DNA of 54,742 nucleotides from a virus (IMGVR_UViG_3300037332_000228:1-54742), one strand, 5' to 3'. Counted from the first letter of the stretch, positions 32,959 through 40,277 are shown. Numbers and translations are program-made. The notes: generated from the letters alone by a model not told the origin.

Positions 32959-34044
32959 ATGTGGTCACCTCAGCAAGAACTTGGCTTGAAAAGTGTAGGC
33001 GTATGGTATCATTCGCTTGATCGCAAACAGGTATTTAAGGTGCTGGGATACGCAGGAACAGGCAAAACTACTTTGGCCAAGCATTTTGCATCCTTGATTA
33101 ATGGCGAAGTGCTTTATGCATCATTCACTGGTAAGGCCGCGTTGGTATTGAGAAAAGCCGGATGCCATGGTGCGACCACCATCCACAGTTTGATATACAA
33201 ACCTGTAAAGAATGAGTTTGGTGTACTGGAATTCTCTATCAACAGAAATTCATCACTCAAAGATGCCGCATTATTGATCGTGGATGAATGCAGTATGGTG
33301 GATGATGAATTAGGCAAGGATCTATTGAGTTTTGGTATTCCCATTCTTGTACTGGGAGACCCTGCGCAACTACCTCCCCCTGGCGGAACTGGGTTCTTTA
33401 CTGAGGGGGAGGGAGACGTCATGTTGACAGAAATCCATCGCCAAGCAGAAGATTCCCCAATTATTCATCTTGCCACTAGTGTGAGAAACGGTGTTATCCC
33501 CAAATTAGGCGAGTACGGTACCAGTAAGATCGTCAATGACGTATCAGCTGATGAGTTCATGCAGTATGACCAAATGATTGCCGGTAGGAACATCACACGG
33601 TCATCTTTGAATGCCATGCACCGTGAAGCATTGGGAAGAGAATCCGTATTTCCAGTAACTGGAGATAGACTGATCTGTCTCAAAAATAAACCAAAGATGG
33701 GACTGTTCAATGGCGGAATGTTTGAAGTTCTAAAAACAACCAAAACCAAATCCAAGATGTTCAAGCAATATACCATTAAGAATCTGGACACCCCTACCCA
33801 AGCAGCGTTTCAGGTCAAAGTACATGATTCATTCTTTACTGGGACCGAAAAGCCAAATTGGAAGACTCTTACTGGATCTCAAGAATTTGATTTTGGATTC
33901 TGTATTACAGCGCACAAATCACAAGGTTCACAGTGGGATTCAGTACTGGTATTTGATGAAAGTTATTGCTTCAGAGACGACAAGTTCAGATGGCTATATA
34001 CTGCTATTACTCGGGCATCTGAGCGTGTTACTATCTATCGTTGA
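32959..34044 (+). CDS. Dda/RecD-like SF1B DNA helicase
   Basis: GYAGTGKTT, TIHS, VDECSM, GDPAQL, LTEIHRQ, TAHKSQGS and YTAITRA motifs. Confidence 0.9.
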   Translation: MWSPQQELGLKSVGVWYHSLDRKQVFKVLGYAGTGKTTLAKHFASLINGEVLYASFTGKAALVLRKAGCHGATTIHSLIYKPVKNEFGVLEFSINRNSSLKDAALLIVDECSMVDDELGKDLLSFGIPILVLGDPAQLPPPGGTGFFTEGEGDVMLTEIHRQAEDSPIIHLATSVRNGVIPKLGEYGTSKIVNDVSADEFMQYDQMIAGRNITRSSLNAMHREALGRESVFPVTGDRLICLKNKPKMGLFNGGMFEVLKTTKTKSKMFKQYTIKNLDTPTQAAFQVKVHDSFFTGTEKPNWKTLTGSQEFDFGFCITAHKSQGSQWDSVLVFDESYCFRDDKFRWLYTAITRASERVTIYR

Positions 34045-36658
34045 CTCTATACATTGTAGATCCGATATGATCACATCTAATAGAGCTATCGGCCCATATT
34101 TTAAATCCTTGATCGAGTGCCTTTTCACAAAAATATATGTCCTCACTTATAGTATTTTCTGAAGTCAATGCACTCTTATATAGATAATGTGGATACTTTA
34201 TAAGTTGAAAGACCTTTGATTTTATCAGACAGCATCCCATCCCACATCCTACTATTTCAAACTGCGTATCCTTGGGTAATTCATCAAGGTGGATGTTAAT
34301 GGATCCGCCAGTCTGAGTTCTCTTATATATCTCCAATGTGTGAGTATTTGGTATTCGTTGTATATACAATCCGGATATGATGTCTTTGTCTGCTGAGATC
34401 ATTTTGGTCAGACAGTCCTTTGGTAATACAATGTCAGAATCAACTGACAACAAATAATCATAATCCAACGACCATTTGGCAATTAGATTTCTAATTTGGT
34501 CAATCTGATATCCATGAAAAAATTGAAAGTCAGTTGAGTATCCATCTGGAATTTCCAGATCATATATTGATTTCATAGTTTCAGGCTCAATATATCTATT
34601 AGTGGGGATTGCTATCAATATGGTTTTTTTCTTCGTAGTGGGCTGATATGATGTCATTGCGTTTTTATTTTGCTCCTGGCCATTTATTTTATAATCATTA
34701 ATGGGATTGATGTCATTGTATATACATACTATTTCTTTATTGCAGTATATTTTGTCAGTTGGTACTTGTTCGATTAATTCATAGAACAATGGGTTATCTG
34801 CTCCCGACTGCATATATTCTCCTGACTCAGTCATGAATTTTACATGATCCAAGGTTTGAAAATACTTGGCAATACATGTCCTCAAGTGAGTGTAAGGTAT
34901 TTTCCAATTGAAAAGATGTGCTCTATATGTTTTATTCTGCTTAACTTCGTCTGGGTATTCTTGTGCAACCAATGGGATCTGGTCTGCAAGACTAAACATA
35001 CTGCCATAAGTGTATTCATATCCTTGATCACATAGATCATTATAATAATGAAATAATGTGTTATTGTTGACCAGCCAGTCGTCCCCATCCAATAACATCA
35101 CCAGAGTATCTTCAGTCGTTCTCCCACTTGACACCATGCGGTTTACAGTGATCAATTGATTGTAAACTGCTCCTTGCCTTTTATTATTTTTAATCAATAT
35201 GAATTTATTTTGTATTTCTTTGGGCAGAGCGGCGATGGTGTCTTTGGCGATGATCCACCCTTCATCAGTGGAATTGTCGTCTATCAATACATGTTGGTAA
35301 GATTCATAATTCTGTTGGGCAACTGACAGGATATTCTTTTGGATGAAATCGGCTGCATTATAGAAGGGGCTTATCACCAGCAGAGGCTTCTCAGAAACGT
35401 ATGAGTGGTATTTTGTGTACGCGGGCATAGTATTACATCTACCGAACACGCGGGCCACTTTATCGTTAATCTTAGATACTGTTCGATACTCTGCCCTTGA
35501 CAAGAATTCTCCCATGATGCCATATATGAATTGTTTCCATTGCAGTGCAACGGTGTCCCACGTGGTAATATCATGAACAACTGAGCAATAATTTTGCTTT
35601 TGTTGATGTAAATATGGGGTATGATATGCAGTTATGACTTGCTCAACAAATTTAGCTACCTGTTCATCATGGTCAATGTCAGGGAATAAAGAATTTGGTT
35701 CAATTGCATAATTGATTTTATAACATGCCATGTCAACTGCGGTTTCTTCCAGTGCACCAAATCTAGTCGTGACAATTGGAGTATTGTACAATAATGATTC
35801 AAGACTTGATATTCCAAACGTTTCTGGAAATGCACATGGATACAGCATCATGTTGGCCTTGGCTAAAATTTTAGCCACTTGTTGCTGTGAGATAATCCCA
35901 GTAAATTCAATACCAGACTGGGCAATATCCGCTGCGTTCATGAGTTCACGAACTATTTGCTCTTGTGCATCTGGGCCGGTGGGAAATTCATAGTACCCTC
36001 CCAATATTAATAATCGTGCCTCTGGTATCTGTTTTTTAATTTCTGGCCAAATTTTGTGTACCAGAGGGATCATTCCCTTGGTGGCGCTGGAATTATACAC
36101 AAATAGATTGGGGTCCTTGTCTGCAATGCGTACATCATTTAGATACTTGACTGCTCCATTCCTCGTTTGAAATATGGATTTCTTCAAGACTTCATAATTT
36201 CTACGTGGGCCTTTGTGATTTGCGTTCAAAATATATGAAGTGTGCCAGTCCGAAAGGGTAAGTACATGATCAATTGTGCCATCCACAATCAACTGTTCCA
36301 TTAAATGGTCACCTTGAATAAACGTGTCATGTAACCATAACATTCTTTTGGTTGCAAACTTTACAAAAGGATGAGAATCAGTAATAAACGGAATTACAGT
36401 CCTTGATACAACCACTACGTCATATATCTCATTGTGTTCTGTTGCCTGTGAGTTGTCTATATATTCAACTCCAGAGTATGTGCCGGGTGAACAGTCTTCA
36501 CCGGATTGGCAATTATTGAAGACTGTGACCTCAAACCCTTGCTTGTATAACTCATTCGCCATGAGAATTACTGCTGATTCTGATCCGCCCAGCCCACGTG
36601 TCTTTAGGGTGTAGCCGTCATATGACAGTCCCATGGTGTCTATTATTGCGATTTTCAT
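34031..36658 (-). CDS. multidomain glycosyltransferase (GT-B/GT4 plus two GT-A/GT2 domains)
   Basis: GLGGSE and ETFGISSLE (GT4); SPFYNA..IDDNSTD..LDGDDW (GT2); SVDSDIV..GMGCCLI..SEDIYFC (GT2). Confidence 0.88.
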   Translation of the reverse strand: MKIAIIDTMGLSYDGYTLKTRGLGGSESAVILMANELYKQGFEVTVFNNCQSGEDCSPGTYSGVEYIDNSQATEHNEIYDVVVVSRTVIPFITDSHPFVKFATKRMLWLHDTFIQGDHLMEQLIVDGTIDHVLTLSDWHTSYILNANHKGPRRNYEVLKKSIFQTRNGAVKYLNDVRIADKDPNLFVYNSSATKGMIPLVHKIWPEIKKQIPEARLLILGGYYEFPTGPDAQEQIVRELMNAADIAQSGIEFTGIISQQQVAKILAKANMMLYPCAFPETFGISSLESLLYNTPIVTTRFGALEETAVDMACYKINYAIEPNSLFPDIDHDEQVAKFVEQVITAYHTPYLHQQKQNYCSVVHDITTWDTVALQWKQFIYGIMGEFLSRAEYRTVSKINDKVARVFGRCNTMPAYTKYHSYVSEKPLLVISPFYNAADFIQKNILSVAQQNYESYQHVLIDDNSTDEGWIIAKDTIAALPKEIQNKFILIKNNKRQGAVYNQLITVNRMVSSGRTTEDTLVMLLDGDDWLVNNNTLFHYYNDLCDQGYEYTYGSMFSLADQIPLVAQEYPDEVKQNKTYRAHLFNWKIPYTHLRTCIAKYFQTLDHVKFMTESGEYMQSGADNPLFYELIEQVPTDKIYCNKEIVCIYNDINPINDYKINGQEQNKNAMTSYQPTTKKKTILIAIPTNRYIEPETMKSIYDLEIPDGYSTDFQFFHGYQIDQIRNLIAKWSLDYDYLLSVDSDIVLPKDCLTKMISADKDIISGLYIQRIPNTHTLEIYKRTQTGGSINIHLDELPKDTQFEIVGCGMGCCLIKSKVFQLIKYPHYLYKSALTSENTISEDIYFCEKALDQGFKIWADSSIRCDHIGSTMYRVNDR

Positions 36659-36758
36659 TGATTTTCCTATGAGTTCAATTAATTCAAATTGAGTATTGAG
36701 TTCATACTGATAGTTATCATGGAAAATAATGATCTTTTCAACAGTTTGAATTATTTTC

Positions 36759-36787
36759 TTGACTATTAATTAGATATATAGTAGAGT
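36759..36787 (+). promoter_or_regulatory. sigma70-type promoter facing the ORF-free structured region
   Basis: TTGACT-17-TAGAGT. Confidence 0.5.
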
Positions 36788-36794
36788 AATAATT

Positions 36795-37405
36795 AAGCTT
36801 GATATCGGAACACGCTGTTCACTAATGTGTGATTGTCTCCGAAGACAGCAATGAAACGTGCAGGTATACATTTGTACCGACTTTCAATCAAAAAACAGAA
36901 CATAAAGGTTGATGCGCCGATTATAGTTATGCATCGTCAAAGACCACGGCAATAAGGTGGCAACTGGGCAATTCTCACTATCTGTTTGTGAGGCTACGGA
37001 GACTATCCTTAACAGGACGCCGATCAGGGTAATGCCTGGTTTCTCCCTAGCATAAAGAATCCTGATTGTTTATCCCAGAGAGATGCTATAGCTGTGTCAC
37101 TTGTTATTAAGGATATTCAATTGGACGGTGAGTGGTTTTCTTCATGCTAGATGATCGAAGAAAACAATTGATACAGAGGAGGTTTTTCACTCGCCAAGAA
37201 GCATTTGAGTCCTATGAGATGATACAGTCACCTGAAAATCATCCTTAAAAATCGTAGCGGCAGGGTAAGGTACAGAGCCCAAGGACAACGCTTGAAAGAC
37301 CGCTGATAGAGTGACGACGCGCACCTCACATGAAGATACGCATAATCATTGAGTCATCCACCTGTTATAGGGTGACTCATGACTCGACACTCTACATGAA
37401 GACCT
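36795..37405 (+). ncRNA. candidate large structured ncRNA (~600 nt), family unassigned
   Basis: No ORF of 60 aa or more in any frame; more GC-rich than flanks; many nested stems with G-U pairs (see findings). Confidence 0.6.
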
Positions 37406-37532
37406 AAGAATTAGTACAATAGATTATATAATAATTAAACTTTAAAACCGTAATACTAAATGAAATGAATATATACAATAGAACGATTACTGAAGCAGAG
37501 CGAAGGTAATAGGTGATAGCAGTATATATGAA

Positions 37533-37548
37533 GTGGCTTGAAAGCCAC
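37533..37548 (+). terminator. small hairpin
   Basis: GTGGCT-tgaa-AGCCAC followed by an A-run, so possibly a minus-strand terminator. Confidence 0.4.
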
Positions 37549-37673
37549 AAAAGACTAGATGACTATACTATATAATGAACGTCTATGTCCAACCAATATT
37601 CAAAACACACTCGTGAATAAAACTTGAATTCATTCGCATATGAATGTAAACTCATGACTAACAAGGAAAATAT

Positions 37674-38171
37674 ATGAAATTATTAATAATAGGCCATGGT
37701 AGACATGGCAAGGACACTGTATGTGATATTCTAGCTGACAAGTACCACATGTCATTTCAGTCGTCGAGTGCATTCTGTGCTGAGCATGTGGTATTCCCAG
37801 TGCTAAGTGAATTATATGGGTATTCAAACTTCATGCAATGTTTTGATGATAGGCACAACCATAGAACAGAATGGTTCAATCTCATTAGTGAATATTGTGA
37901 AATTGATGGTGCTAGGTTGGGCAGAGAGATATTTTCAGAATATGACATCTACGGTGGTCTTCGTAATCCCAGAGAATTTGCGGCCATGAAAGAACAAAAG
38001 GTATTTGATTGGTGCGTCTGGGTGGATAGAAGTCACCATTTGCCTCCTGAGCCATTTGCAAGTATGGGCTTGACAGTTGATCATGCAGACTATATTGTCA
38101 ATAACAATGGTTCACTGAGTGACTTGGCAATACAAGTGGACAATCTAATGAAGGAACTGAACAGTGTCTAA
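37674..38171 (+). CDS. dNMP kinase-like P-loop protein
   Basis: IIGHGRHGKDT, R..RE and ADYIVNNNGSL motifs. Confidence 0.7.
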   Translation: MKLLIIGHGRHGKDTVCDILADKYHMSFQSSSAFCAEHVVFPVLSELYGYSNFMQCFDDRHNHRTEWFNLISEYCEIDGARLGREIFSEYDIYGGLRNPREFAAMKEQKVFDWCVWVDRSHHLPPEPFASMGLTVDHADYIVNNNGSLSDLAIQVDNLMKELNSV

Positions 38172-38805
38172 ATCAATATGGGTGATATCAGATACTCATT
38201 TCAATCATGCATCTATGCTAAAGTTTACTGATCGAACTACTAGGCAGATGATACGTGGTTGTAAATTTTCATCAGTTGAAGAAATGAACGAACACATGAT
38301 TGAACGCTGGAATTCAGTCGTCAAACAGGGCGATACTGTATATCACTTGGGAGATGTAGTCATGGGAGCCAATTCAGAAAATTGGATGAAACTCAATTGG
38401 GGTAGATTGAATGGCAGTAAGAGATTGATTGTGGGCAACCATGACGATGTCAAGATGCTTTCCACGGGAGGATGGTTCAAGAAAGTATCAATGTGGCGAA
38501 TGTTCCCAGAGTTTTCCTGTGTATTGACACATGCGCCAATTCATGCTAGTGGATTGCTCAAACAGCCCAGGGGATCAACTGCTGTTTGGCCAGACGATAC
38601 TGATGTTTTGATGAATGTTCATGGCCATATCCATCAAAACAAATCACCTCAGGGACCATATATGAATGTTTCTGTTGAAATGATTGATTATACTCCAGTG
38701 AATATGGAAGATATTGCAGTTATTGCTGGAAATTATGCAGAGAATTCTTGGCCAGTTGACAAATATAGAGTGCTTCCTGAAATGTTTTCAGTTGACAATG
38801 CATAA
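38164..38805 (+). CDS. calcineurin-like metallophosphoesterase
   Basis: SDTH, HLGDV, GNHD, HAP and HGHIH motifs. Confidence 0.9.
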   Translation: MSKSIWVISDTHFNHASMLKFTDRTTRQMIRGCKFSSVEEMNEHMIERWNSVVKQGDTVYHLGDVVMGANSENWMKLNWGRLNGSKRLIVGNHDDVKMLSTGGWFKKVSMWRMFPEFSCVLTHAPIHASGLLKQPRGSTAVWPDDTDVLMNVHGHIHQNKSPQGPYMNVSVEMIDYTPVNMEDIAVIAGNYAENSWPVDKYRVLPEMFSVDNA

Positions 38806-40209
38806 CTTACTTGTCTTTCTTTTATTATAATGTGTCATACCTGCCACAAAACCAGATGGAGGGCTTTCGGATTTTAATATTTTTATATTTGTTACGCCGT
38901 CAGTATAACATTTCTTCGGAAGAGTGGTTAATGTACGTCCCGGCCAAAATCCCGACGGGGGAGAATCATTCTCCCAAACCGTTTTATTAGTTATACCGTT
39001 AGTATATATTTTACGGTTACGTGATGGTAATTTACCTTTAATGAATCCATTGGGGACTGTGTCCCCAATGGATATCAATTTGTTAATCTTATTGTTGTTG
39101 TAATATGCTGTACGTTTGTTAACTTGGTACTTTAACTCCCCAGTATTCAGTCTAGTATCATCTGGATACACTAAAACGATATTACCATAATTATCTTCTG
39201 CTTTTTTCATACCACGCATCCATGGTACCAGTTCTCCTGAAATATATCTAATATCCATTTTATTGACGTAAAATTTATCATTATTTCGTCTATCCGAATA
39301 TTTCACTAACACAAGTCCAGACGTAATTCCCTTGAGCTCCCCAGATAGATATTTTTCGTCAGTTACTGAAACTCGTTGCGTTCTACCGTCTTTATCTTTT
39401 ACAACCACCATCCCGCTTGTGAATTGTTTGAACTCTCCACTAAGTATACGTGAGTCATACTTGGACACATAATGTGAGTGTCCTTTCGAATCGAATACGG
39501 TGTTCATTCCAGTGGTCACCCCAACTAGTTCCCCACTAATAAACCGATCGTCGTCTTTGTTAATTTGAAATGTATTTCCATCTTTATCTTTTACGGATAT
39601 TTTATTTGCCGAAAAGGATGTATACCCTAAATTTATTGCTTCTTCTCTAGTTGTATAGACATAGTTATCACTTGCGTCTAGGTACTGTGATTTGGTTTTG
39701 TTTAGACTTTCCAGCTCACCGGTATTCCATCTAATATCATGTACATCAAAAACTGAAGTTTCACCCGTCTCGATAATGCGCCCGGGTTTTTTCCCTTTAG
39801 TGGCACCTGTCAGTTTACCAGAAACATAATCTGGATTGGTTGTTGCAACTTGGAAAGTAAAGCCAAATGAGTCAATGACTGTTGCTTTTCCCGTATTGTC
39901 AAAAAATTTCCAGTCATTGTCATGGTTATTATAGAATTTATCATTCTGAGCCGCCTTGACTTTAGTTAAAAACTTCTTTTCATAGTCATATGTATCATTT
40001 GCAGTGTCAAAGATTTTAATTTTTCTAATCAAAAATGTTACTAAACCATGTGAATTAATTATCGATTTAATAACTTTGGAACTTGTCTGATACCCATTAA
40101 TAGTCATAAGTGTTGATGGTGTTGCTAATTTAGCCCATTGTGCGCCGGCATAATATATGCCGTTCCGTTTGTCCTGAATAATATAAAAATATGGCGAATA
40201 AATAGTCAT
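38788..40209 (-). mobile_element. free-standing GIY-YIG-like homing endonuclease
   Basis: PYFYIIQ..NGIYYAG, Y.TSS, E..FL..V.A..N..FYN; about eight 32-aa repeats ending SGEL plus three YTNG..N...P.GF..G repeats; antisense to neighbours. Confidence 0.8.
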
Positions 40210-40277
40210 GTTGGGATCCTTTTCTCCTAATGTAGTTGGGAAGATTTCCACAATTCCGCGAACTACGTTTATTTATT
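40210..40277 (-). promoter_or_regulatory. TAAATA late-type promoter and structured leader
   Basis: GTAGTT-CGC-GGAA-loop-TTCC-C-AACTAC on the minus strand. Confidence 0.65.

What the first reader, a model, noticed from the sequence alone, without database searches (positions are those of the whole stretch)
36795..37405. Candidate large, highly structured phage ncRNA (~600 nt) with its own promoter
Seen: in a gene-dense genome, about 1 kb (36659-37630) has no ORF of 60 aa or more, a TTGACT-17-TAGAGT promoter points into it, and its core is more GC-rich than the flanks. Nested helices found by eye: CTGGG(36964)/CCCAG(37074) encloses GCTACGGAGA/TCTCCCTAGC, which closes two hairpins (TCCT/AGGA, TCAGG/CCTGG). 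TTAAGGAT(37107)/ATCCTTAA(37241) encloses GGTGAGTG/CACTCGCC and GTTTTCTTC/GAAGAAAAC. AGCGG(37256)/CCGCT(37300) encloses GGG/CCC and CAAG/CTTG. TAGAGTG(37307)/CACTCTA(37388) encloses TGAGTCATCC/GGGTGACTCA. CTGTGTCA(37092) can pair with either of two TGATACAG copies, a possible pseudoknot or switch. G-U pairs read on the + strand favour a + strand RNA. Known: phages encode large RNAs of this size class (ROOL, GOLLD). I see no hallmark of tmRNA, RNase P or group I/II introns. Inference: a new or divergent large ncRNA family of unknown function.
Basis: partly seen in the sequence, partly recalled or inferred. Interest (0 to 1): 0.88.

Follow-up and report, generated by a model that had tools for sequence, protein, structure and literature searches.

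The report
Large structured phage RNA, Polynucleobacter-1 relative
The gene-free stretch encodes a real, roughly 500-base folded RNA belonging to a large family carried by uncultured freshwater phages, of which only the first third was previously catalogued as a small motif of unknown function.

Summary
The gap 36659-37673 holds a genuine structured RNA on the + strand, with a conserved core at 36902-37402. Folding energy does not show this (z -0.18). Homologs and covariation do.

An 18-mer from the core recurs in 56 viral contigs. In a sequence-based alignment of 41 members, 94.8% of cells pair against 78% in shuffles, and 18 of 27 pairs show compensatory changes, one pseudoknot helix included.

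A model of the 5' domain built without the window's subfamily hits the window once, at 36902-37050 (E 6.6e-7). That stretch also matches Rfam Polynucleobacter-1 (RF01718) below threshold (24.8 bits, cutoff 37). Seven loci score with both models. So the 141-nt Rfam motif looks like the 5' third of a 350-500-nt phage RNA. Covariation continues 3' of the Rfam model in RF01718-positive loci.

Five reader helices are supported by covariation and one is invariant. Two are not supported. Four lie in or depend on a ~135-nt insert found only in this lineage.

Function is unknown. I favour a stand-alone, trans-acting RNA with alternative pairings in its 3' domain. Novelty: new variant of a known kind.

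The parts
36759..36787 (+). Promoter-like TTGACT-17-TAGAGT, 115 nt upstream of the conserved RNA start. Unverified.
   Evidence: 9 of 12 match. Six such sites were found in 1.3 kb against 5.3 +/- 2.1 in shuffles.
36795..36901 (+). Variable leader, possibly transcribed, not part of the conserved RNA.
   Evidence: 5 substitutions against L001 fall here; no counterpart in relatives.
36902..37402 (+). Conserved core of the structured RNA: 5' domain, insert and 3' domain.
36902..37050 (+). 5' domain, a divergent Polynucleobacter-1-like domain.
   Evidence: model R1, 25.6 bits, E 6.6e-7, the only hit in 54.7 kb. RF01718 at 36906-37048, 24.8 bits (cutoff 37), E 0.0044.
36907..36919 (+). Candidate 5' pseudoknot: GGUU (36907-36910) pairing with GCC just 3' of the first hairpin's 5' strand.
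   Evidence: By eye: GGUU/GCC in most rows, GGCG/CGCC in L036, L067, L071, L073 and L079, GGUG/CACC in L028 and L039. Not counted formally because the alignment register differs between groups.
36911..36935 (+). First hairpin, GAUGC/GCAUC.
   Evidence: 4 covarying pairs in the main family; only 62% paired on A7, where MAFFT shifts the register.
36993..37051 (+). Helix GCUACGGAGA/UCUCCCUAGC, which encloses two hairpins.
   Evidence: 91% paired, 4 pairs with changes on both sides; the equivalent main-family helix has 7 covarying pairs.
37006..37017 (+). Hairpin UCCU/AGGA inside the conserved ACUAUCC..GGACG block.
   Evidence: 92% paired..
37024..37039 (+). Hairpin UCAGG/CCUGG with loop GUAAUG.
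   Evidence: 100% paired, 3 pairs with changes on both sides.
37063..37210 (+). Region holding a ~135-nt lineage-specific insert. Its exact borders are ambiguous because its ends resemble each other.
   Evidence: present only in the window and L001, absent from 8 other window-type sequences. It sits at a site where other members also vary in length.
37202..37308 (+). 3' core with a pseudoknot.
   Evidence: model R2, 50.2 bits (the window was in the training set). L176 was not in the training set and scores 51.1 bits.
37209..37286 (+). Long-range helix GUCCU (37209-37213) / AGGAC (37282-37286).
   Evidence: 100% paired, 1 covarying pair; helices 1 and 2 have 7 covarying pairs.
37218..37243 (+). 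Hairpin GAUGAU/AUCAUC with the conserved loop ACAGUCACCUGAAA.
   Evidence: 100% paired, 5 of 6 pairs covary; 6 of 6 covary, 97.3% paired.
37244..37257 (+). Near-invariant segment CUUAAAAAUCGUAG, single-stranded except for its last two bases, which begin the AGCGG strand.
   Evidence: invariant columns.
37256..37304 (+). Pseudoknot helix AGCGG (37256-37260) / CCGCU (37300-37304). It crosses the 37209/37282 helix.
   Evidence: helix 4: 96.8% paired, 5 covarying pairs; 100% paired.
37263..37280 (+). Hairpin GGGUAAGGUACAGAGCCC.
   Evidence: an exact copy in 56 viral contigs. Its invariance in my alignments follows from how they were collected.
37325..37334 (+). X1: CUC + ACAUGAA.
   Evidence: parallel covariation with X2.
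37350..37379 (+). Hairpin UGAGUCAUCC/GGGUGACUCA. Its 3' strand GGUGAC (37371-37376) is also complementary to the loop GUCACC (37227-37232).
   Evidence: 86% paired; loop against 3' strand gives A-U 32, U-A 10, G-C 7, G-U 2, and no mismatch in 51 scorable sequences.
37391..37400 (+). X2: UCU + ACAUGAA, at the 3' end of the conserved core.
37403..37611 (+). AT-rich trailer with GAGCGAAGG (37498-37506) and hairpin GUGGCU-UGAA-AGCCAC (37533-37548). Possibly the 3' part of the transcript.
   Evidence: no difference from L001 across the trailer 37403-37611. The wider span 36902-37611 has one, at 37113 in the insert. GCGAA-type motifs and a hairpin recur downstream in relatives.

Best explanation
The gap encodes a stand-alone non-coding RNA gene read left to right.

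Its conserved core (36902-37402) is a divergent, insert-bearing member of a large family of 350-450-nt RNAs. These are carried by uncultured, mostly large T4-like and jumbo phages. The family has two parts:
- A 5' domain that is the same structure Rfam lists as the 141-nt Polynucleobacter-1 motif.
- A 3' domain, not catalogued, built around a pseudoknot and a set of near-invariant unpaired segments.

Shown: homology, strand, extent, most helices, and one pseudoknot counted formally. A second long-range pairing (GCCU/AGGU) comes only from my own scan, and a 5' pseudoknot is seen by eye only.

Inferred, about 0.55: the RNA acts in trans as a folded RNA (scaffold, RNP component or ribozyme) during infection, as is assumed for GOLLD and ROOL. 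It does not regulate the next gene.

Inferred, about 0.3: its 3' domain switches between two conformations. The strand GGGUGAC can pair with either of two look-alike partners, the hairpin strand 37350-37359 or the loop 37227-37232. Two identical 6-7-nt sites (X1 at 37328, X2 at 37394) are kept identical across the family. This is what one would expect if one factor or one active site reads both.

The confidence of 0.75 is for the identity claim together with the stand-alone reading. The identity claim alone is about 0.9.
For: Family: the 18-mer at 37263-37280 is in 56 viral contigs. Window-type relatives: 4 viral and 12 metagenome stretches.

Structure:
- RNAalifold on 41 sequences gives 44 pairs, 33 with compensatory changes.
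- On the 3' core, 94.8% of cells pair against 78.0 +/- 0.7 in shuffles (0 of 500 reach it) and 36-47% when partners are slid. 18 of 27 pairs change on both sides, and 189 such cells compare with 48 in shuffles.
- On 10 window-type sequences, 87.4% pair against 78.5%, with 17 of 53 pairs covarying.

Membership independent of how homologs were collected: R1, built from 37 main-family 5' domains, hits the window once at 36902-37050 (E 6.6e-7).

Link to RF01718:
- The window scores 24.8 bits over model positions 1-141.
- L133, L131, L119, L106, L129, L110 and L135 score with R1 (22-36 bits) and with RF01718 above its cutoff (39-75 bits) at the same coordinates.
- RF01718-positive loci have covarying helices 3' of the Rfam model: 6, 3 and 2 covarying pairs in 95 representatives.

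Stand-alone rather than leader: the next ORF of 70 aa or more is on the opposite strand in 17 of 47 main-type and 57 of 102 RF01718-type loci. Neighbours of main-type copies differ from locus to locus.

Purifying selection: 1 difference from L001 in 36902-37611, against 11 in the other 304 nt of the gap.

Alternative pairing. Identical X1 and X2: (4 variable columns), by eye, and (54 of 66 scorable RF01718-type sequences are 6 of 6 identical, with 9 distinct 6-mers).
Against: - No transcript evidence of any kind. The promoter is a chance-level match and no + strand terminator was found.
- Folding energy is no better than shuffles.
- RF01718 is below its curated cutoff in the window (24.8 against 37).
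- R2, the 3' core model, finds nothing in RF01718-type loci even with filters off (best 12.1 bits, E 2.9). Homology of the 3' domains across the whole superfamily therefore rests on shared architecture, the shared CAAUCU end and the X1/X2 repeat, not on a score.
- Sequences are related, so cell counts overstate independent events. The loop/strand covariation reflects about three clades.
- No cis or trans partner for X1/X2 was found.
- The switch idea is inference only.
- No isolate phage in GenBank carries the RNA, so nothing links it to a phenotype.
Confidence: 0.75

Rival explanations
1. Cis-regulatory leader or riboswitch. The RNA is the 5' untranslated region of the next + strand gene (37674-38171, dNMP-kinase-like) and controls it by ligand- or protein-dependent refolding. 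This matches how the 2010 paper tabulated Polynucleobacter-1.
For: PMC2864571 (table passage seen) marks Polynucleobacter-1 'cis-reg: y, switch: ?'. The window RNA and the next gene share a strand. Mutually exclusive pairings are typical of riboswitch expression platforms.
Against: - A 272-nt AT-rich spacer lies between the core and the start codon.
- Relatives of that gene at 46-57% identity lack the RNA.
- The downstream ORF is convergent in 74 of 149 scorable loci, and downstream genes differ between loci.
- In 113 of 130 RF01718-type loci the RNA follows a gene rather than preceding a conserved one.
- 350-500 nt with at least one pseudoknot counted formally is far larger than known riboswitch aptamers (established knowledge).
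Confidence: 0.1
2. Unconventional self-processing RNA linked to mobile endonucleases. This would be a degenerate or novel intron-like ribozyme that cleaves or joins at the two identical sites X1 and X2, releasing the ~66-nt piece between them.
For: X1 and X2 each lie directly 3' of a short pyrimidine block (CUC and UCU) and covary in parallel. The fold has crossing helices and near-invariant unpaired segments. In 113 of 130 RF01718-type loci a 142-aa SegE-like GIY-YIG endonuclease-domain gene ends a median of 5 nt before the RNA. An HNH endonuclease-like ORF lies 1.4 kb away in the window.
Against: - No group I, group II or small-ribozyme family appears even at E up to 10.
- No split host gene flanks the RNA.
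- The GIY-YIG gene is absent from the window and from main- and window-type loci. The 113 loci share gene order, so the linkage may be inherited synteny.
Confidence: 0.08
3. Replication-origin transcript. The promoter, folded RNA and AT-rich trailer would act like T4 oriF/oriG or ColE1 RNA II, with the RNA forming a persistent R-loop that primes DNA synthesis.
For: The RNA sits at a divergent-transcription point, with a - strand gene to the left and + strand genes to the right. It has AT-rich flanks. GC skew turns positive from about 36600. Relatives carry 2-4 AGGCA/AGGCU repeats just upstream: 44 copies against 11 in control stretches across 42 loci.
Against: - The window itself has none of the AGGC repeats.
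- Skew follows gene strand here.
- The copy moves to many different genomic contexts.
- The crossing helices and invariant loops go beyond what known primer RNAs need (established knowledge).
Confidence: 0.06
4. No RNA function. The gap would be decayed or regulatory DNA, or would hold small proteins, and the helices are chance.
For: Folding energy equals shuffles. Promoter match is chance-level. A 25-codon ORF (37330-37407) spans X1 to X2.
Against: Compensatory changes appear in dozens of pairs against shuffled and slid controls. Indels are not in multiples of three. Most members have no AUG at X1 or X2. R1 gives a single significant hit.
Confidence: 0.01

Closest known systems
Polynucleobacter-1 RNA motif (Rfam RF01718; Weinberg et al. 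2010, PMC2864571)
   Same: The window's 36906-37048 aligns to all 141 model positions and shares ACUAUCCUUAACAGGACG and the enclosing multi-stem junction. Intermediates score with both RF01718 and my main-family model. Habitat also fits: the paper lists Burkholderiales and fresh water/estuary, and one full copy here is on a contig of a Polynucleobacter MAG.
   Different: The window scores 24.8 bits against a cutoff of 37. The Rfam model stops after 141 nt, whereas the RNA continues for 200-350 more conserved, covarying nucleotides. The window lacks the upstream 142-aa GIY-YIG gene seen in 113 of 130 RF01718-type loci.
GOLLD and ROOL large ornate RNAs
   Same: Both are large, pseudoknotted RNAs of unknown function encoded by phages and prophages, 'often near tRNA islands' (PMC12286853, passages seen). 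Here 16 of 60 family loci hold tRNA or tmRNA genes in the fetched stretch, and four near-identical loci have a tmRNA gene about 60-70 nt upstream. GOLLD also has one well-conserved half and one less-conserved half.
   Different: No GOLLD or ROOL match even at E up to 10. This RNA is shorter, 350-500 nt against about 580 and over 800. The window has no tRNA in 54.7 kb. Oligomerisation was not tested.
Group I introns of T4-like phages, with GIY-YIG or HNH endonuclease ORFs
   Same: Similar size. Crossing long-range helices in the order A5', hairpin, B5', hairpin, A3', B3'. An endonuclease-domain gene is adjacent in one subfamily.
   Different: No RF00028 match. No interrupted host gene. The hairpin order differs from P3-P8-P7 (recalled). 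No guanosine-site signature was identified.

Membership tests
Rfam RF01718 Polynucleobacter-1 | Score at or above the curated gathering cutoff of 37 bits | tested here: not met
   no hit at gathering in the window; 24.8 bits, E 0.0044 for the 1.1-kb stretch searched.
Rfam RF01718 Polynucleobacter-1 | Full-length match to the model's helices and conserved blocks | tested here: met
   model 1-141 aligned without truncation. ACUAUCC..GGACG and the closing helix are kept. GGGAuGGAA and GCaGUA are not.
Rfam RF01718 Polynucleobacter-1 | Connected to bona fide members through intermediates | tested here: met
   Seven loci are hit by R1 and by RF01718 above cutoff at the same coordinates. R1 also hits the window.
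Rfam RF01718 Polynucleobacter-1 | Usual gene context: directly after the 142-aa SegE-like GIY-YIG gene (113 of 130 loci here) | tested here: not met
   no homolog in the window. Flanks are a glycosyltransferase and a dNMP-kinase-like gene.
Extended phage RNA family defined here (5' domain + 3' pseudoknot core + X1/X2) | Significant score with the 5' domain model built without the window's subfamily | tested here: met
   25.6 bits, E 6.6e-7 (rough calibration), the single hit in the window.
Extended phage RNA family defined here (5' domain + 3' pseudoknot core + X1/X2) | 3' core helices and pseudoknot kept through compensatory change | tested here: met
   L176, which was not in the training set, scores 51.1 bits with R2.
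Extended phage RNA family defined here (5' domain + 3' pseudoknot core + X1/X2) | Identical 6-7 nt after CUC and after the terminal UCU | tested here: met
   ACAUGAA at 37328-37334 and at 37394-37400.
GOLLD / ROOL | Match to the Rfam covariance models | tested here: not met
   neither model appears at gathering or at E up to 10.
Group I / group II intron, RNase P RNA, tmRNA | Match to Rfam models, or ARAGORN for tmRNA | tested here: not met
   none listed.

The most novel reading that the evidence does not exclude
The family is a new class of large phage ribozyme or RNA switch. A pseudoknotted core toggles one strand (GGGUGyC) between two look-alike partners. It also reads two identical, phage-specific 6-7-nt sites (X1, X2), either to cut or join its own 3' module or to dock two copies of one trans partner. 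On this reading the 16-year-old orphan motif Polynucleobacter-1 is only its 5' domain.
Probability: 0.12. Interest if true: 0.9.

Novelty: new variant of a known kind. Interest (0 to 1): 0.62.

Why it matters
- It turns an orphan 141-nt Rfam motif, tabulated in 2010 as probably cis-regulatory, into the 5' domain of a much larger pseudoknotted RNA gene.
- It places two sister subfamilies, including this window's, below Rfam's detection threshold. Current annotation pipelines therefore miss them.
- Large, highly conserved RNAs without known function are rare and have repeatedly led to new biochemistry.
- This one offers concrete handles for experiments: mutually exclusive pairings and two co-varying identical sites.

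Tried and rejected
- Thermodynamic test: no signal on the + strand.
- Rfam at curated thresholds: 0 hits in the window.
- blastn against 50,697 GenBank phage records with the window gap, a main-family RNA and an RF01718-type RNA: no match each time.
- Synteny through the downstream gene: 9 loci, only the 98%-identical L001 has the RNA.
- R2 on RF01718-type loci: nothing with default filters or with filters off.
- R1 on bona fide RF01718 loci L010-L021: no hit at E up to 0.01.
- A terminal helix AGGUUG/CAAUCU closing the molecule: considered by eye, then dropped. The 5' strand covaries with the loop GCC instead, and the 3' strand does not follow it (rows L028, L036).
- RNase P-like reading of AAAGUC and ACAGA: recalled resemblance only. 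The order of elements does not fit and no Rfam hit supports it.
- Cis complement for X1/X2 within -600..+350: none consistent.
- tRNA linkage: only 16 of 60 loci, none in the window.
- Exact 18-mer in 185,579 species genomes: 3 hits. Two are full copies on 4.7- and 6.1-kb MAG contigs and one is a chance match.
- Sequencing runs: no RNA holder listed.
- Literature: 'Polynucleobacter-1' occurs in 1 paper of the library. Searches listed no description of a longer RNA or of this family. Only listings were seen apart from passages of PMC2864571 and PMC12286853, and supplements were closed.
- In some searches I mis-specified GGG/CCC by one base. Those rows are void, and helix 5 is the valid count.

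Full report
**Setting**

The window is a 54.7-kb fragment of an uncultured T4-like phage; genome-search runs it an IMG/VR record, CheckV 21% complete. Around the finding lie these genes:
- an RNA ligase and a Dda-like helicase;
- an 875-aa multi-domain glycosyltransferase on the - strand (34031-36658);
- on the + strand, a dNMP-kinase-like gene (37674-38171) and a metallophosphoesterase;
- an HNH-endonuclease-like ORF and the topoisomerase II subunits.

**Checking the observation**

- The gap 36659-37673 has no ORF above 48 aa inside it.
- GC rises to 0.41-0.46 in 36800-37400 against about 0.30 on both sides.
- The promoter-like hexamers and every helix arm are at the stated coordinates.

Two of these signals are no better than chance.
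- The + strand folds no better than dinucleotide shuffles (z -0.18). The - strand gives z -1.86.
- Promoter-like sites are as frequent in shuffled sequence, 6 against 5.3 +/- 2.1.

Rfam at curated thresholds finds nothing in the window, and ARAGORN finds no tRNA or tmRNA.

**First lead**

A permissive Rfam scan of the gap alone gave one notable match. Polynucleobacter-1 (RF01718) aligns over its whole 141 positions at 36906-37048 (+), at 24.8 bits against a cutoff of 37, E 0.0044.

**Finding relatives**

- A 98%-identical contig (L001) carries the same gap. Only 1 of its 12 differences falls in 36902-37611; the rest lie in 36660-36901 and 37612-37673. This argues for constraint on the core and the trailer.
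- More distant relatives of the downstream gene lack the gap.
- A pattern shared by the window and the Rfam consensus pulled 16 viral stretches. Twelve of the 15 scanned are bona fide RF01718 at 84-101 bits. Two of the three misses appeared to lie within coding sequence, judged by eye from the printed flanks. The third, L022, is a true diverged homolog of the whole window RNA.
- The 18-mer GGGUAAGGUACAGAGCCC, shared by the window and L022, occurs in 56 viral contigs, many of them 100-350 kb.
- The 5' motif ACUAUCCUUNACAGGACG occurs in at least 120.
- A window-type pattern added 4 viral and 12 metagenome stretches.
- No GenBank phage record matches by blastn.
- Among 185,579 species genomes, only two short MAG contigs carry full copies.

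**Three subfamilies**

1. Main type: 350-450 nt, with CACUACC in place of ACUAUCC. It gets no Rfam hit at gathering in 14 loci tested.
2. Window type: the window, L001, L022, L176 and the metagenome loci. About 350 nt, except in the window and L001.

**Structure**

On a sequence-based alignment of 41 full-length RNAs, RNAalifold gives 44 pairs, 33 of them with compensatory changes. My own scan recovers these helices and adds two long-range pairings that cross other helices.

For the 3' core, 27 pairs in 5 helices were counted:
- 94.8% of cells pair, against 78.0 +/- 0.7 in shuffles (0 of 500 reach it) and 36-47% when partners are slid.
- 18 pairs change on both sides.

G-U pairs fixed in 29-38 of 38 sequences settle the strand as +.

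On 10 window-type sequences the consensus structure is 87.4% paired against 78.5% in shuffles, with 17 of 53 pairs covarying.

- Five are supported by covariation.
- One (GGG/CCC) always pairs but never varies.
- CAAG/CTTG (65.8% paired) and TAGAGTG/CACTCTA (52.3% paired) are not supported.
- Four cannot be tested, because their letters exist only in the window and L001.

**The insert**

The window and L001 carry about 135 extra nucleotides within 37063-37210. All eight other window-type sequences lack them. The insert sits where other members also vary in length.

The start of the insert resembles the sequence just after it (UCCCAGAGAGAUG... against UCCUAUGAGAUG...), which suggests a local duplication that later diverged. 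The TTAAGGAT/ATCCTTAA helix would disrupt the conserved hairpin GAUGAU/AUCAUC (5 of 6 pairs covary) and the near-invariant CUUAAAAAUCGUAG.

**Is the window a member, independent of how I collected homologs?**

Yes. A covariance model of the 5' domain, built from 37 main-type sequences only, gives a single hit in the whole window on either strand: 36902-37050 (+), 25.6 bits, E 6.6e-7 with rough calibration.

**Link to the known motif**

- The same model hits 9 of 100 further loci. Seven of them are RF01718 hits above cutoff at the same coordinates (where 19 of 20 loci pass; the miss is window-type L176).
- In RF01718-type loci the motif sits at the 5' end of a roughly 700-nt ORF-free gap.
- Conservation runs on well past the model.
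- In 95 representatives, helices with 6, 3 and 2 covarying pairs lie 3' of it.

So the Rfam entry appears to be the 5' third of a longer RNA.

Caveat: my 3' core model does not score in RF01718-type loci. Homology of the 3' domains across all three subfamilies therefore rests on shared layout, the shared CAAUCU end and the feature described next.

**Two unusual features**

1. Identical sites X1 and X2. The 6-7 nt after an internal CUC (X1) always equal the 6-7 nt after the terminal UCU (X2), while differing between phages. Variants seen include AGCAAA, AACAAA, AGCGAA, AGAUGAA, GGAUGAA and ACAUGAA. This is the only parallel-covarying run in the 41-sequence alignment, with 4 variable columns. 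It also holds in 54 of 66 scorable RF01718-type sequences, though my script picked the best pair per sequence, which biases this upward. No complementary strand was found nearby.
2. Two partners for one strand. The loop GxCACC of the conserved hairpin is complementary to GGGUGyC about 140 nt downstream. The counts for x-y are A-U 32, U-A 10, G-C 7 and G-U 2, with no mismatch in 51 scorable sequences. Two partners for one strand suggest alternative conformations. Only about three clades carry the changes, so this is suggestive, not proven.

**Context and function**

- Main-type copies sit among unrelated genes.
- In 15 of the 42 loci tested, 2-4 AGGCA/AGGCU repeats lie just upstream; many loci also show a TGTATAAT-type extended -10 about 40-55 nt upstream, noted by eye.
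- The next ORF is convergent in 74 of 149 scorable loci, which argues against a leader role.
- RF01718-type copies follow a 142-aa SegE-like GIY-YIG domain gene in 113 of 130 loci. That gene is absent from the window and the other subfamilies.
- tRNA or tmRNA genes occur in 16 of 60 loci. Four near-identical loci have a tmRNA gene directly upstream.

I could list no RNA sequencing run, so expression is untested.

**Verdict**

This is a real RNA, correctly spotted by eye. Its core is 36902-37402 (+). It is a divergent, insert-bearing member of a large phage RNA family whose 5' domain is already known as Polynucleobacter-1.

I favour a stand-alone trans-acting RNA (about 0.55), with a 3' conformational switch as a weaker inference (about 0.3). 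Rival readings are a cis-regulatory leader (0.1), a self-processing intron-like RNA (0.08) and an origin transcript (0.06).

My literature searches found no description of the longer RNA. The supplements of the 2010 paper were not available to me.

Noticed in passing
window 38788-40251 (-), compared with L001:5132-5184: The 487-aa HNH-endonuclease-like ORF between the phosphoesterase and topoisomerase II genes seems absent from the 98%-identical contig L001. There the two genes are about 52 nt apart instead of about 1.5 kb (ORF lists). It looks like a free-standing homing endonuclease present in one contig and missing from the other.
   Followed up: partly
100 nt upstream of the RNA in relatives, e.g. 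L022, L033, L036, L051, L061, L069, L176, L206: Two to four copies of AGGCA/AGGCU, spaced about 10-12 nt apart, lie just before the RNA start: 44 copies against 11 in control stretches across 42 loci. The window has none. They could be binding sites for a phage regulator or a phage-specific promoter element.
   Followed up: partly
L028, L029, L036, L038, L039, L049, L051, L067, L069-L071, L073, L078, L079, about 40-55 nt upstream of the RNA: A shared UUUUGG(A/C)U..TGTATAAT extended -10-like element precedes many main-type RNAs (sequences printed). This fits an independent transcription unit.
   Followed up: no
window 37498-37548; 60-200 nt downstream of the RNA in relatives: GAGCGAA(A)GCGAAG-like motifs followed by a hairpin recur after the RNA. 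GCGA[AG] occurs 23 times against 9 in control stretches across 38 loci, and the motif is part of the RF01718-type consensus. It may be the true 3' end of the transcript or a separate small element.
   Followed up: partly
L030:2967-3366, L035:13250-13649, L048, L052, L051:2656-3125; also L029 and L033: Phage contigs with their own tmRNA genes. In four near-identical loci the tmRNA lies about 60-70 nt upstream of the RNA on the same strand.
   Followed up: no
L033:3364-3438, L059:8093-8167, L071:3855-3928: ARAGORN calls tRNAs with anticodon CUA, labelled tRNA-Pyl, which would be amber suppressors. These phages may read TAG as a sense codon.
   Followed up: no
L039:1245-3296 and 11 other main-type loci: A 684-aa CHASE2 plus adenylate/guanylate cyclase protein gene neighbours the RNA in 12 main-type loci. 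This is an unusual signalling gene for a phage.
   Followed up: no
window 37330-37407 (+): In this lineage both X copies contain AUG and lie in one frame, giving a 25-codon ORF, MKIRIIIESSTCYRVTHDSTLYMKT. Most family members have no AUG at these sites, so it is probably incidental.
   Followed up: yes
window 34031-36658 (-): An 875-aa protein combining glycosyltransferase group 1, family 2 and a third phage glycosyltransferase-like domain. It is a large fused glycosyltransferase next to the RNA gene.
   Followed up: no
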